64,000 nucleotides of DNA from Candidatus Thorarchaeota archaeon (lineage in GTDB: Archaea; Asgardarchaeota; Thorarchaeia; Thorarchaeales; Thorarchaeaceae), in contig JBHLRP010000003.1 of the NCBI GenBank assembly GCA_048882485.1, positions 1-64,000 on the forward strand, read 5' to 3'. Under the pieces are notes generated by a model. That model ran no database searches. It was not told where the DNA came from and saw nothing but the letters and a program-made list of their open reading frames with translations. Below are positions 1-26,956 of the stretch, piece by piece. Both the position numbers and the translations under genes were made by a program. Position 1 is the stretch's first letter. Each line of letters begins with the position of its first letter.

Positions 1-65
1 GCTAGCTCGTAGATCTTACGCTCCTCATTCACATGAGGTCATTAATGTCTCCGTGCACCTCCCGG

Positions 66-122
66 CAAGGCGAGACAACGTGGGGATGAAACGTTGGGTA
101 TCATCCCCACACCCCCTCCTTG
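66..122 (+). promoter_or_regulatory. Structured 5' leader/hairpin upstream of the micro-ORF
   Basis: Perfect 10-bp IR gtggggatga (80-89)/tcatccccac (101-110); alternative pairing caacgt (76-81)/acgttg (91-96); outer caagg (66-70)/ccttg (118-122). Confidence 0.5.
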
Positions 123-131
123 GTGATTGTT

Positions 132-248
132 ATGGCTACTACTGAGAGAACAAAGCTTGCGCGATCAAAGGGGTCTGCAACTGTTCTCCGGAGATATCGC
201 GTTGGACCGAACAAGAGAGTCCGGACTCGACTGAAGAAGATGAAATGA
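132..248 (+). CDS. Small basic protein, 38 aa (MATTERTKLARSKGSATVLRRYRVGPNKRVRTRLKKMK), below the ORF-track cutoff
   Basis: Manually translated: ATG 132 to TGA 246-248; GGTGA SD at 122-126; 14 K/R versus 1 acidic residue. Confidence 0.6.
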   Translation: MATTERTKLARSKGSATVLRRYRVGPNKRVRTRLKKMK

Positions 249-20146: not shown

Positions 20147-21238
20147 ATGAAAATCCACGCGAACTTGGACGAAACCGATGTACGAATTCTGAAATCTCTA
20201 GCCGAGCATAGGAAGAAAGTATCAACCCGTGAATTGAGTGATGAGCTTGACATACCAGACAGAACTGTCAGATATAGACTGAGGAAGCTCAAGGAGAAAG
20301 GATTGCTATGTCCTCCCAAGCTCCAGACGTATGAGAGAAAACTTGGTCTAGGTGAGAACCTAGTGCTTCTCCAGAGTAATCCGTCAATGGAGCAGCAATT
20401 GATTGATCTCTTGGACGATACCGAGTTCTTTTACTATTATGGGCCCACCTATGGCAAATATGATGGCTTCATGGTCTATGCAATGTATCCACTAGTAACG
20501 CCGAGGATGGTGCAGCAGCTAGCTGAAGAGATGATGGACAGGGATCTTATCAAGGACTACTTCATAATGGATATGGTAGACTACACTCGAAAGATGGCAG
20601 TACTCGAGCCTCTATTACCCGAGAGTGACTGGTCATGGGATGAATGGTCTGAGAAGATTGAACAGATCATGAAGAATGACTGTGAGATCGATTTGGGTCT
20701 CGAGGAATTCCCAAAGGCGGTGAAATTCGACTATACCGATATCCAGATCATCAAGCATATGGTAGAGAATCCGACCAGTACTCTGAAAGAGGTTGGTGAT
20801 GCATTGGAGCCAGCAATGTCTCTGACTCAGGTACATAAGCGTGTCAAGAGGCTGGAGGATGAAGGAATCATCAGAGGCTTTAAACCCTCTTTCACGCCTT
20901 TCAAGGAATCTGTTTCAGTTTCAATATTCTTCAAATCCCGCGACCATGCGAAGAAGCTTCTATGTGGCTTCACAAGGCTGCCTTTCGAAATCAATATCGC
21001 AATGGAGAACAAGTCAACCTACAACATATGGGTGATGATGCCATCGAGTGAATTGAATCAGTTCCTCCAGAGAATTAACTTCTTCAGAAAATATACCGAA
21101 GAATTCTTCATCCAAATGTTCATCAAAGGCAAAAGCAAAGGCTACACCCATCTACTTACAGCATTCAATCTTGATACTCAGAGCTGGGAGATGCCTATCT
21201 CCGAAACCTTGGTGAAAATCAAGGAGATCACCCAGTAA
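20147..21238 (+). CDS. Lrp/AsnC-like transcriptional regulator with two wHTH-RAM modules
   Basis: LDETDVRIL..L...STRELSDELDIPDRTVRYRLRKLKEKG and FDYTDIQII....TLKEVGDAL...VHKRVKRLEDEGII. Confidence 0.88.
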   Translation: MKIHANLDETDVRILKSLAEHRKKVSTRELSDELDIPDRTVRYRLRKLKEKGLLCPPKLQTYERKLGLGENLVLLQSNPSMEQQLIDLLDDTEFFYYYGPTYGKYDGFMVYAMYPLVTPRMVQQLAEEMMDRDLIKDYFIMDMVDYTRKMAVLEPLLPESDWSWDEWSEKIEQIMKNDCEIDLGLEEFPKAVKFDYTDIQIIKHMVENPTSTLKEVGDALEPAMSLTQVHKRVKRLEDEGIIRGFKPSFTPFKESVSVSIFFKSRDHAKKLLCGFTRLPFEINIAMENKSTYNIWVMMPSSELNQFLQRINFFRKYTEEFFIQMFIKGKSKGYTHLLTAFNLDTQSWEMPISETLVKIKEITQ

Positions 21239-21295
21239 GGCATCCACAAATGTTACAGAGACATCAAGGTTTAAAACAGAATTTGCCTTTGCTGC

Positions 21296-21460
21296 GTTGA
21301 CAGAAATGCCACGAGGAAATATCACACATTATTGGTTCCCGCTTATTAGTGGGAACTAGTGTTGAGCTCTCTTCCTCGTGTTGTCGACTTCTTCTGATTG
21401 CGGTCCTCTCGGGGAAGAGGACTCCATTGCCAGCTACACGCCAGGGGCGATAAGCTGTCA
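21296..21460 (+). ncRNA. Highly structured RNA / 5' leader
   Basis: Stems 21296-302/21382-88, 21310-18/21372-80, 21333-43/21348-58 (G-U pairs on + strand), 21403-09/21416-22, 21431-35/21453-57; TATA tttaaaa 21270-76. Confidence 0.6.
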
Positions 21461-21493
21461 TCTGTGTGCTAACCTCGAGGAGGAAAATGGAAA

Positions 21494-21706
21494 ATGTCAG
21501 CTCGAGAAGCACGAAAACGAAAACGCAAAGTAAGACGTGAAATGAACAAGAATGAACTTAGATGGTACACCGCTGCCTTCGCAGATATATTGGATACTAG
21601 GCATACCTCTCCTAACTTACCACTTCGTGACTATATCGCGTTGACACCGCGGATTAATTCCAATCGACGTCTGGGCAGATATATTGACACGAAGGTGAAG
21701 GAATAA
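21494..21706 (+). CDS. Small basic protein with N-terminal Arg/Lys-rich motif
   Basis: GAGGAGG SD at 21477-83; MSAREARKRKRKVRREMNK...; 3' hairpin. Confidence 0.7.
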   Translation: MSAREARKRKRKVRREMNKNELRWYTAAFADILDTRHTSPNLPLRDYIALTPRINSNRRLGRYIDTKVKE

Positions 21707-21747
21707 CCGCAGCTCCATTCCTACAAGAAATAGTGTTTTGGACCAAA

Positions 21748-21790
21748 GCCCTGTGCATCAATCAGGCACATATTTGCTATTGCACAGGGT
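21748..21790 (+). terminator. Hairpin 3' of the small basic ORF
   Basis: gccctgtgca / tgcacagggt followed by ccttattttc. Confidence 0.5.
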
Positions 21791-21999
21791 ATACCTTATT
21801 TTCAGCCAAACTTACAGCAATTTTCCTGCCCGGTCAACTGCCTTTTCCTTTGAAGACATTGTTTTCTTGTGAGATTTCTTCATGTGACCGGCTTTTTCCT
21901 CATTAGAATGAAATGTTTGACCGCATGCTCCACAGGTTACTTTCGCTGAGATAGTACTCATACTCATCAGTTTCATATTTGGAATTAACTATAATGAAC

Positions 22000-26603: not shown

Positions 26604-26706
26604 TTATGGGCCCCATTTAACGTATTGAGGACTTTGATATCAATACATAGGTCTTTTTCATCAAAAATAGACCTCCATTCACCCCATTATGTAAATGGGG
26701 GCCGTA
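26604..26706. repeat. About 20-bp imperfect inverted repeat enclosing two hairpins (ncRNA- or MITE-like)
   Basis: ttatgggccccatttaacgta / tatgtaaatgggggccgtaa; inner gtattga/tcaatac and aggtct/agacct. Confidence 0.5.
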
Positions 26707-26839
26707 AGAGGCTATTATTAGATATCATTGGGAGTTAATAAGAGAAATCATGATTCAGCAACAGTGCCAAATTCACTTCTGATTATGTCATGTTCATCAG
26801 TCAATGCGAGACACGCGACTGATAGGAGCAAGACTGCAG

Positions 26840-26956
26840 ATGTCGAAAAAGAAGAGGAGTAAGGCCTCTGAAAAGAGGAACGAGCAGAAGACCAAGAAAG
26901 AGGTCGACTGGGTTCTAGCTTTTGAGTGGGCCAAGACTGGATACAAAGGACCCTGA
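26840..26956 (+). CDS. Small basic protein, 38 aa (MSKKKRSKASEKRNEQKTKKEVDWVLAFEWAKTGYKGP), below the ORF-track cutoff
   Basis: Manually translated; AGGAG upstream; ends 24 nt before the TPR gene. Confidence 0.6.
   Translation: MSKKKRSKASEKRNEQKTKKEVDWVLAFEWAKTGYKGP

What the first reader, a model, noticed from the sequence alone, without database searches (positions are those of the whole stretch)
21270..21706. Riboswitch-like structured leader in front of an Arg-rich peptide
TATA at 21270-76 predicts a TSS near 21296, exactly where a 93-nt hairpin begins (7-, 9- and 11-bp helices with G-U pairs on the + strand). Two more hairpins follow, then a strong GAGGAGG SD and MSAREARKRKRKVRREMNK.... 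The N-terminus resembles arginine-rich RNA-binding motifs (lambda N/Rev type), suggesting autoregulation by binding its own leader or formation of an RNP. Few archaeal riboswitches are established, so a new cis-element would matter.
Basis: partly seen in the sequence, partly recalled or inferred. Interest (0 to 1): 0.7.

Follow-up and report, generated by a model that had tools for sequence, protein, structure and literature searches.

The report
Switchable leader RNA with mini-ORF
In front of a small arginine-rich protein gene of a Thorarchaeota (Asgard) genome lies a conserved, folded RNA leader that can adopt two mutually exclusive shapes and carries a conserved 17-codon reading frame at its 5' end, so it looks like a leader-ORF-driven attenuator, a device I found no published archaeal case of, rather than a metabolite riboswitch.

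Summary
A TATA box (21270-77), a ~190-nt folded leader (z = -4.4 on the + strand), a GGAGG Shine-Dalgarno (SD) site and a 70-aa Arg/Lys-rich ORF (21494-21706) are all present.

The unit is conserved as a single copy in 36 of 85 genomes of one Thorarchaeota family, in 6 of 16 genera. It was found in no other family of the phylum. It matches no Rfam, Pfam or NCBIfam family.

The leader is more conserved than the protein, but in an unusual way: its stems are nearly invariant and its loops vary. That is the opposite of a metabolite aptamer.

Two things seem to explain this:
- **Mini-ORF.** A 16-18-codon ORF (21306-21359) starts about 4-6 nt after the predicted transcription start. It is open in every homologue, and all four indels inside it are 3 nt long.
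- **Alternative helix.** The block CUCUUCCUCG can pair either with the mini-ORF's CGAGGAA or with the loop and 3' arm of the invariant second hairpin. This alternative helix is 98% paired across 36 sequences.

My best reading (about 0.42) is a ribosome-dependent RNA switch controlling ORF2. Three points weaken it: the peptide shows no amino-acid-level selection, leaderless starts are not typical of this genome, and the predicted SD opening appears only in the window's own clade.

This scan already noted the same class on another genome (e1-5639560), with a similar reading.

The parts
21270..21277 (+). TATA box (TTTAAAAC); predicted transcription start about 21299-21302
   Evidence: A TATA-like hexamer (TTTAAA, TTAAAT or TTATAT) starts 32-36 nt upstream of the mini-ORF ATG in nearly all homologues. 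The start site itself is inferred from the usual archaeal TATA-to-start spacing, not measured.
21306..21359 (+). Mini-ORF, 17 codons plus stop (MPRGNITHYWFPLISGN*), about 4-6 nt from the predicted 5' end and without an SD
   Evidence: It is open, with ATG and TAG/TAA at homologous positions, in all unique leaders, including the divergent L024, L078, L079 and L089. All 4 distinct gap runs inside it are 3 nt, against 6 of 29 multiples of three downstream. The G.U pair between the Trp codon and the stop codon is kept in 35 of 36 sequences. There is no frame-specific dN/dS signal.
21310..21318 (+). Block a (CACGAGGAA), the 5' strand of helix P1; lies within codons 2-5 of the mini-ORF
   Evidence: The P1 core pairs are invariant in 35-36 of 36 sequences.
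21330..21361 (+). Helix P2, the apical hairpin of hairpin 1; holds the Tyr-Trp-Phe codons and the stop codon
   Evidence: 88% of cells are paired and 4 pairs carry compensatory changes. In L089 the stem is rebuilt by several double changes.
21368..21380 (+). Block b (CUCUUCCUCGUG), the switch strand. It pairs with block a (P1, 21372-80) or with 21410-21420 (alternative helix, 21368-78).
   Evidence: The alternative helix is 97.7-98.2% paired across 35-36 sequences, against at most 74% when the partner strand is slid. It has 2 compensatory pairs.
21388..21395 (+). Pyrimidine tract CUUCUUCU, complementary to the SD (anti-SD). In other lineages it is a U4-U7 run.
   Evidence: RNAalifold pairs it with AGGAGG in the consensus fold.
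21402..21423 (+). Hairpin HP2 (GGUCCUCU-CGGGGA-AGAGGACU). Its loop and 3' arm (21410-21420) are the partner of block b in the alternative fold.
   Evidence: 97.6% of cells are paired and 5 of 8 pairs show compensatory changes on the model-fitted alignment. In L089 the stem is replaced by GGAUU/AAUCC while CGGGGAG is kept.
21431..21457 (+). Hairpin HP3, variable in sequence and absent in some lineages
   Evidence: 8 pairs carry compensatory changes in alignment A1. It is absent in L031, L034, L037, L040 and L044.
21477..21483 (+). Shine-Dalgarno site GAGGAGG, preceded by a conserved CCUC
   Evidence: GGAGG lies 10 nt before the ATG and is conserved. The anti-SD CCUCC is present at the 3' end of a relative's 16S rRNA. 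SD use is the norm in this genome.
21494..21706 (+). ORF2, a 70-aa Arg/Lys-rich protein of an orphan family restricted to Thorarchaeota
   Evidence: It follows the leader in every locus. pN/pS is 0.56 in frame. The family has 13 close clusters and 16 clusters among 1.84 billion representatives. No Pfam, NCBIfam or PDB match. AlphaFold2 gives a helix at residues 3-38.
21749..21789 (.). 9-bp inverted repeat (CCCTGTGCA / TGCACAGGG) between the convergent ORF2 and a zinc-finger ORF; possibly a 3'-end structure
   Evidence: inverted repeat I7. It is kept in close relatives. Its function was not tested.

Best explanation
The region is one transcription unit: promoter, a roughly 190-nt regulatory leader, then a small basic protein gene (ORF2).

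The leader is a two-state RNA switch.
- **State A.** Block a (in codons 2-5 of a 17-codon mini-ORF at the 5' end) pairs with block b to form P1. P2 and hairpin HP2 are also formed. The pyrimidine tract between b and HP2 is then free to pair with the SD of ORF2.
- **State B.** Block b pairs instead with the loop and 3' arm of HP2 (CUCUUCCUCG with CGGGGAAGAG). This dissolves HP2 and encloses the anti-SD tract in a loop.

The most likely trigger is a ribosome on the mini-ORF.
- On the early codons it masks block a and drives the leader into state B.
- At the stop codon, 8-13 nt before block b, it masks b and lets HP2 re-form.

ORF2 output would then follow ribosome traffic or pausing on the mini-ORF, as in bacterial leader-peptide attenuation.

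What is shown: conservation, the two compatible folds, frame maintenance of the mini-ORF, and RNA-library contigs that join leader and ORF2.

What is inferred: the start site, translation of the mini-ORF, the direction of the effect, and whether the output is SD access or premature termination at the pyrimidine/U tract.

ORF2 itself is probably a nucleic-acid-binding helix. Its function is unknown.
For: 1. The unit is conserved. TATA, leader, SD and ORF2 are collinear in all homologues. The covariance model R1 finds it once per genome in 36 of 85 family genomes, in 6 of 16 genera, and in no other family among 151 phylum genomes.

2. State A is supported. 91.6% of cells are paired, against at most 63% when the partner is slid. 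Nine pairs carry compensatory changes, a count reached by 0 of 500 shuffles. HP3 has 8 covarying pairs.

3. State B is supported. An 11-bp helix is 98.2% paired in 36 sequences, against at most 72% slid. Compensatory changes are U-A to C-G in L024 and C-G to U-A in L076. By my own reading of the sequence, L089 shows the same U-A to C-G change. In L089 the HP2 stem is rebuilt from other nucleotides while the b-complementary CGGGGAG is kept.

4. Masking block a makes the b:HP2 helix the minimum-free-energy fold in all six printed lineages.

5. The mini-ORF is maintained.
   - Start and stop sit at homologous positions in all unique leaders.
   - Codon 2 is lost as exactly 3 nt, with ACA-AUG kept.
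   - 4 of 4 gap runs inside are triplets, against 6 of 29 outside (my Fisher test gives about 0.005).
   - The G.U pair that a stop codon requires is kept in 35 of 36 sequences, where a G-C pair would be more stable.
   - CGA to AGA in L019 is synonymous but breaks a P1 pair.

6. The TATA-to-ATG distance of 32-36 nt implies a 0-6-nt 5' UTR. Leaderless transcripts are defined as having 0-5 nt upstream of the start codon in PMC4983044.

7. The pattern of invariant stems and variable loops is what overlapping constraints would produce: two pairings plus a reading frame.

8. In the window's clade, the modelled unpaired probability of the SD rises from 0.19 to about 0.55 with a ribosome on codons 1-7.

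9. Contigs from RNA libraries join leader and ORF2: X18 covers 21312-21630 and X17 covers 21336-21547. X15 has a 98-nt piece identical to 21327-21424.
Against: - The mini-ORF shows no amino-acid-level selection. pN/pS is 0.84 in frame against 0.72 and 0.78 out of frame.
- Its conserved residues coincide exactly with RNA stems, and its variable residues with loops.
- TAG/TAA alternation is equally explained by pairing with U.
- Leaderless initiation is not typical here. Genome-wide, TATA-like motifs show no peak 30-36 nt before start codons, while SD motifs peak strongly at -11 to -15.
- The modelled SD opening is absent in most other lineages, where a local CCUC...GGAGG pairing keeps the SD closed in all states.
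- The mini-ORF has no run of codons for one amino acid that would name a signal.
- Covariation is sparse because the stems barely vary. Alignment A5 was fitted to state A.
- The start site is not measured. RNA-library contigs may contain DNA.
Confidence: 0.42

Rival explanations
1. Protein-mediated autoregulation without a role for the mini-ORF. ORF2's basic helix, or another protein, binds the sequence-invariant HP2 or hairpin 1 and locks state A, which closes the SD. The small frame is a by-product of conserved stems.
For: - ORF2 always accompanies the leader.
- Its N-terminal 38 residues are modelled as one Arg/Lys-rich helix with high confidence.
- Stems that are invariant in sequence, not only in pairing, fit sequence-specific recognition.
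- The mini-ORF peptide shows no selection.
- Leaderless starts are atypical in this genome.
Against: - It does not explain the triplet-only indels, the retained ACA-AUG after loss of codon 2, or the conserved G.U at the stop codon.
- In L089 the HP2 stem sequence is replaced while the b-complementary loop is kept. That favours RNA-RNA pairing over protein recognition of HP2.
- No binding data exist.
Confidence: 0.25
2. Same switch, different output. Hairpin 1 followed by the pyrimidine/U tract acts as a premature transcription stop. A coupled ribosome on the mini-ORF prevents the hairpin and lets RNA polymerase read on into ORF2 (transcription attenuation).
For: - A 7-12-nt pyrimidine tract follows hairpin 1 in most of the 35 sequences listed. 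It contains runs of 4-7 T in about half of them and T6 in L089.
- The earlier scan note on another genome describes an attenuator-like end (a lead only).
Against: - In the window's own clade the tract is CUUCUUCU, with no run longer than two T.
- The terminator scan finds nothing in 21150-21900.
- The alternative partner of block b lies downstream of the tract, so it cannot act before the polymerase passes.
- RNA-library contigs run through the tract into ORF2.
Confidence: 0.12
3. The 5' 130 nt is a stable small RNA, or the RNA part of an RNP with ORF2. It would have a function of its own (dual-function transcript) rather than regulating ORF2.
For: - The RNA block 21297-21431 is conserved further than the ORF2 sequence in blastn.
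- One RNA-library contig covers just 21327-21424, with no mismatches.
Against: - The RNA is never found without ORF2 directly downstream at a fixed distance, and never as an extra copy.
- The anti-SD/SD complementarity links it to ORF2 translation.
- Contig ends say nothing about RNA ends.
Confidence: 0.1
4. A metabolite- or ion-binding riboswitch.
For: The leader is highly conserved, structured and two-state, and it lies before a gene.
Against: - No Rfam match, even at E = 10.
- Junction and loop nucleotides vary in sequence and length while stems are invariant.
- It occurs at a single locus per genome, before one gene with no metabolic or transport link, and without conserved neighbours.
Confidence: 0.06

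Closest known systems
Leaderless polycysteine short-ORF attenuators of mycobacteria (Canestrari et al., bioRxiv 10.1101/834739)
   Same: A short ORF at the very 5' end of the transcript, without an SD, precedes an SD-led gene. [quoted passage not shown]
   Different: That system is bacterial. Its sensor is an obvious run of Cys codons and the regulated genes are cysteine metabolism. Here there is no codon run, the regulated gene is an orphan basic protein, the organism is an Asgard archaeon, and translation has not been shown.
Leader-peptide translational attenuation of ermC/cat (ErmCL; PMC5499644 listed)
   Same: A leader ORF of about 19 codons overlaps the first strand of a set of alternative helices. 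Ribosome position decides whether the downstream SD is sequestered.
   Different: In ErmCL the peptide sequence is essential, because stalling depends on the nascent chain and on a drug. Here the peptide is not conserved beyond what the RNA stems impose.
Enterobacterial leader-peptide transcription attenuators (trpL, hisL, pheL; Rfam Trp_leader RF00513 and relatives)
   Same: The logic of four segments with mutually exclusive pairings. A ribosome early in the leader ORF gives one outcome and a ribosome at its stop codon gives another.
   Different: There is no Rfam match, no run of regulatory codons, and no hairpin-plus-U-run terminator in the window. The alternative pairing here is 2:4 rather than 2:3.
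Autoregulatory ribosomal-protein leaders (for example L20, S15, L1)
   Same: A small, very basic protein is encoded behind a structured, conserved leader that can hide its SD.
   Different: ORF2 matches no ribosomal protein family. The leader shows no similarity to the 16S or 23S rRNA of relatives that carry it.
Arginine-rich-motif peptides binding RNA hairpins (lambda N-boxB, HIV Rev-RRE, Tat-TAR)
   Same: A helical Arg/Lys-rich N-terminus sits next to an invariant hairpin.
   Different: The resemblance is in composition only. There is no sequence relationship and no binding test. The basic stretch here continues into a conserved amphipathic part (FADxI...FPxxEY).

Membership tests
Any Rfam 15 family (riboswitches, leaders, sRNAs) | Covariance-model score at or above the family's gathering threshold | tested here: not met
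   There are no matches over the whole window at gathering thresholds. At E up to 10 over 21100-21900 there are only two chance hits, to a fly lncRNA and a miRNA.
Ribosome-dependent (leader-ORF) attenuator | A short ORF in the leader with conserved start, stop and reading frame | tested here: met
   The ORF is open with homologous ATG and TAG/TAA in all unique leaders. All indels inside it are triplets.
Ribosome-dependent (leader-ORF) attenuator | Mutually exclusive helices, one strand of which lies inside or just after the leader ORF | tested here: met
   P1 (a:b), HP2 and the alternative b:HP2 helix are all 91-98% paired and have some compensatory changes. Masking block a switches the predicted fold.
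Ribosome-dependent (leader-ORF) attenuator | Sensor codons (a run of one amino acid) or a conserved arrest peptide | tested here: not met
   There is no codon run. The peptide varies wherever the RNA is unpaired, and pN/pS is 0.84, no lower than out of frame. The Tyr-Trp-Phe triplet is replaced in L078, L079 and L089.
Ribosome-dependent (leader-ORF) attenuator | An output element that is switched: SD sequestration or a terminator | tested here: inconclusive
   Anti-SD/SD pairing appears in the consensus fold. SD opening is predicted only in the window's clade. No terminator was found in the window, although other lineages have U runs.
Ribosome-dependent (leader-ORF) attenuator | The leader ORF is translated | not testable with these tools
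   Only contigs of RNA libraries were available. There is no ribosome profiling or proteomics. Genome-wide, leaderless architecture is not common.
Metabolite riboswitch | Conserved unpaired core nucleotides with covarying stems | tested here: not met
   The pattern is the reverse. The stems are nearly invariant, and both sides of the internal loop and the apical loop vary in sequence and length.
Metabolite riboswitch | Association with genes of one pathway or transporter, usually at several loci | tested here: not met
   There is one copy per genome, always before the same orphan ORF. No neighbours are conserved outside the genus.
Metabolite riboswitch | Specific ligand binding | not testable with these tools
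   This needs in-line probing or ITC.
Autoregulatory r-protein leader | The regulated protein is a ribosomal protein and the leader mimics its rRNA site | tested here: not met
   ORF2 has no r-protein family match. Only chance 8-11-mers are shared with the 16S/23S rRNA of G012, G035 and G022.
Arginine-rich-motif RNA-binding peptide | A short basic helix that binds a specific RNA hairpin | not testable with these tools
   A basic helix is predicted. Binding to HP2 or hairpin 1 was not tested.

The most novel reading that the evidence does not exclude
This is a ribosome-dependent leader-ORF attenuator in an Asgard archaeon. A leaderless 17-codon frame, whose translation rather than whose peptide matters, flips a three-way-constrained RNA between two folds. 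That sets the output of a lineage-specific Arg-rich RNA-binding protein, which may in turn bind the same leader. I found no published archaeal case of such a device.
Probability: 0.35. Interest if true: 0.75.

Novelty: new variant of a known kind. Interest (0 to 1): 0.6.

Why it matters
Cis-regulatory RNAs are poorly known in archaea, and I found none reported in Asgard archaea: full-text searches for Asgard riboswitches and for archaeal leader-peptide attenuation gave no relevant paper.

A conserved two-state leader with a mini-ORF would show that ribosome-sensed RNA switching, a hallmark of bacterial gene control, also operates in the closest prokaryotic relatives of eukaryotes.

It also offers a compact element of about 130 nt that can be tested by mutation. 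And it flags an orphan basic protein family that selection keeps under tight post-transcriptional control.

Even if the mini-ORF turns out not to be translated, the element is a new, well-delimited structured RNA family. A usable alignment and covariance model now exist for it.

Tried and rejected
- **Rfam.** Nothing at gathering or permissive thresholds.
- **Repeat or mobile element.** One copy in the genome.
- **Pattern scans.**
  - L036 (Anaerolineae), L049 (Desulfurococcaceae), L054, L056-L061, L064, L069 and L072 are chance matches without the upstream blocks.
  - The weak model hits L080 and L081 are also chance.
- **Minus-strand 82-aa ORF (21264-21512).** Rejected. 23 of 29 gap runs downstream of the mini-ORF are not multiples of three, and the HP3 segment is missing in several lineages.
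- **Peptide-level selection on the mini-ORF.** No frame-specific signal.
- **Universal SD-opening model.** Ribosome masking opens the SD only in the window's clade.
- **Leaderless starts as the genomic norm.** No TATA peak at -30 to -36.
- **rRNA mimicry.** No significant similarity to the 16S/23S rRNA of three carriers. The window's own genome lacks an assembled 16S, and G004 has only a 23S fragment.
- **Conserved neighbours as a functional clue.** The two-HTH Lrp-like gene is upstream only in the window's genus. RidA and the M20 peptidase appear only in close relatives. Other genera have unrelated neighbours: TPR/CN-hydrolase, GNAT, ferredoxin and unknowns.
- **ORF2 relatives.** Nothing in Pfam, NCBIfam, PDB sequences or the ESM Atlas.
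- **ORF2 homodimer job.** It returned no verdict and is used neither for nor against.
- **Uncovered stretches in RNA-library contigs.** Upstream of 21312 the contigs left the window uncovered except for one short dissimilar piece (X17, 21182-21222), and they left 21720 onward uncovered.
- **Fold search with the ORF2 model.** Not run, because a single helix gives meaningless matches.

Full report
**What is there.**
The window comes from a Thorarchaeota (Asgard) metagenome-assembled genome. Close homologues are labelled Candidatus Thorarchaeota.

After the stop of a two-HTH Lrp/AsnC-like gene (20147-21238) come, in order:
- a TATA box, TTTAAAAC, at 21270-77;
- a strongly folded stretch;
- GAGGAGG at 21477-83;
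- a 70-aa ORF at 21494-21706.

The + strand of 21290-21500 folds at -78.7 kcal/mol against -60.6 +/- 4.2 for shuffles (z = -4.37). The minus strand gives z = -2.7. Rfam has no match. The sequence is single-copy in its genome.

**Conservation.**
Blastn over 60 relatives recovered the locus in 17 genomes of the window's own family (13 of 16 in its genus), plus two short stray matches in other families that I set aside. The RNA block 21297-21431 is detectable further out than the ORF.

Exact-pattern scans of genome and metagenome collections added more loci, almost all labelled Thorarchaeota. About a dozen chance hits were discarded.

I built a covariance model (R1) from 32 unique leaders (A2).
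- It finds one copy per genome in 36 of 85 other genomes of the family, in 6 of 16 genera.
- It finds nothing convincing in the 26 other families sampled across 151 genomes of the phylum.

In every locus the same small ORF follows the leader.

**The protein, ORF2.**
- It is under frame-specific purifying selection: pN/pS is 0.56 in frame against 0.99 and 1.15 out of frame.
- It forms a tiny orphan family: 16 clusters among 1.84 billion representatives and no match in Pfam, NCBIfam, PDB or the Atlas.
- AlphaFold2 models residues 3-38 as one confident basic helix and leaves the rest undefined.

**Neighbours.**
The Lrp-like gene is upstream only within the window's genus. Elsewhere the neighbours differ. 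The unit is therefore autonomous.

**Anatomy of the leader.**
The consensus fold has these elements:
- P1, 21310-18 with 21372-80;
- P2, 21330-39 with 21352-61, extended in the window;
- HP2, 21402-23;
- the variable HP3, 21431-57, which covaries at 8 pairs but is absent in five lineages;
- a pairing of the pyrimidine tract 21388-95 with the SD.

The conservation pattern is the reverse of a riboswitch aptamer. The stems are nearly invariant in sequence, while the internal-loop and apical-loop nucleotides vary in sequence and length. Two further findings explain this.

*First finding: a mini-ORF.* Hairpin 1 contains a small reading frame at 21306-21359, encoding MPRGNITHYWFPLISGN.
- Its ATG lies 32-36 nt after the first T of the TATA box in nearly all homologues. 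That predicts a 5' UTR of 0-6 nt. Leaderless is defined as 0-5 nt in PMC4983044.
- The frame is open, with start and stop at homologous positions, in all unique leaders. This includes the divergent L024, L078, L079 and L089.
- All four distinct gap runs inside it are exactly 3 nt. One of them is a clean loss of codon 2 that keeps ACA-AUG. Only 6 of 29 gap runs downstream are multiples of three (my Fisher test gives about 0.005).
- The pair between the second G of the Trp codon and the U of the stop codon is kept as G.U in 35 of 36 sequences, although G-C would be more stable.
- CGA to AGA in L019 is synonymous but breaks a P1 pair.

Against a functional peptide:
- pN/pS is 0.84, no lower than in the other frames.
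- The conserved residues are exactly those encoded by stems.
- Codons 13 and 17 covary as RNA pairs: CAC/GUG, CGC/GCG and CCC/GGG (alignment).

If the frame matters, it is its translation that matters, not its product.

*Second finding: an alternative helix.* Block b (CUCUUCCUCG, 21368-78) is complementary both to block a and to the loop plus 3' arm of HP2 (CGGGGAAGAG, 21410-20).
- This alternative 11-bp helix is 97.7-98.2% paired in 35-36 sequences, against at most 74% when slid.
- It has compensatory changes in L024 and L076, and by my reading of the sequence also in L089.
- In L089 the HP2 stem is rebuilt as GGAUU/AAUCC while the b-complementary CGGGGAG is retained, and P2 is rebuilt by several double changes.
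- When block a is made unavailable, the b:HP2 helix becomes the predicted minimum-free-energy fold in six lineages examined.

The leader is thus a conserved two-state RNA. Block b is constrained by two partners and block a by pairing plus coding. That accounts for the invariance.

**Mechanism.**
The geometry is that of a leader-ORF attenuator.
- A ribosome on codons 1-9 covers block a and frees b, giving state B.
- A ribosome at the stop codon, 8-13 nt before b, covers b and lets HP2 re-form.

In the window's clade the modelled SD accessibility rises from 0.19 to about 0.55 in state B, because the anti-SD tract is enclosed in a loop. In most other lineages a local CCUC...GGAGG pairing keeps the SD closed in every state. 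The output step is therefore unresolved.

In about half of the lineages the pyrimidine tract is a run of 4-7 U directly after hairpin 1. That allows a transcription-attenuation variant. The window itself has only CUUCUUCU and no terminator-like site.

**Expression.**
Contigs from four metatranscriptome libraries lie on 21312-21719. Two of them join leader and ORF2 (X18 21312-21630; X17 21336-21547). One 98-nt piece is identical to 21327-21424. These are contigs and may include DNA. They show neither ends nor levels.

**Caveats.**
- Genome-wide, this organism uses SD-led starts (a strong peak at -11 to -15) and shows no TATA peak 30-36 nt before start codons. A leaderless mini-ORF would therefore be unusual here.
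- The anti-SD CCUCC is present in a relative's 16S rRNA.
- Covariation statistics are limited by low variation, and A5 was fitted to state A.

**Comparison and verdict.**
The closest mechanistic relatives are the mycobacterial leaderless short-ORF attenuators (10.1101/834739) and ermC/trp-type leader-peptide attenuation. Unlike them, this element has no sensor codons and no conserved peptide.

- The riboswitch reading fails its testable criteria.
- Autoregulation by the Arg-rich protein remains a live rival.
- rRNA mimicry was not found.

That is not independent evidence, although I re-derived the mini-ORF and the two folds here before I saw it.

I rate this a new variant of a known kind, with interest 0.6.

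Noticed in passing
L086:3100-3160 (16S rRNA 3' end of relative G012): The 16S rRNA carries an insertion of about 35 nt that forms a hairpin (GGAAG...CUUCC). It lies between the conserved GCGGAUGG and the terminal AUCACCUCCU anti-SD, so it is an expansion right next to the anti-SD.
   Followed up: no
whole genome G000: Across 2889 long ORFs, SD-like motifs peak sharply at -11 to -15. TATA-like motifs show no preferred distance to start codons. This Thorarchaeota genome therefore appears to use mostly leadered, SD-dependent initiation.
   Followed up: partly
window 21812-21976 (-): A 54-aa ORF has weak C2H2 zinc-finger matches (Pfam E about 1e-3). It is convergent with ORF2 and is conserved at 41-61% identity in a few relatives (L010, L011, L019).
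   Followed up: partly
window 21749-21789: A perfect 9-bp inverted repeat (CCCTGTGCA / TGCACAGGG) lies between the two convergent small genes and is kept in close relatives. It may be a shared 3'-end structure.
   Followed up: no
L065:2450-2584 (-): In this metagenome contig ORF2 is cut to 45 aa by a premature stop, while the leader is intact and has the best model score. This is either a pseudogene or an assembly error.
   Followed up: no
L046 (JBHLLF010000081.1), L027/L033/L052/L053: Contigs 91-97% identical to this Thorarchaeota locus are deposited under the labels 'Hermodarchaeota' or 'Promethearchaeota archaeon'. The taxonomic labels in the source records are inconsistent.
   Followed up: no
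window 20147-21238 (+): The upstream 363-aa protein has two winged-HTH (AsnC/Lrp-type) modules. It stays upstream of the leader unit throughout the window's genus, down to 52% identity, sometimes with an inserted gene in between. It is not there in other genera.
   Followed up: partly
window 60-248 and 26604-26956 (earlier notes e1-5637632, e1-5637634): Other first-reader notes on this window describe further unannotated small basic ORFs behind structured leaders. If these are real, small basic proteins with folded leaders may be a recurring theme in this genome.
   Followed up: no
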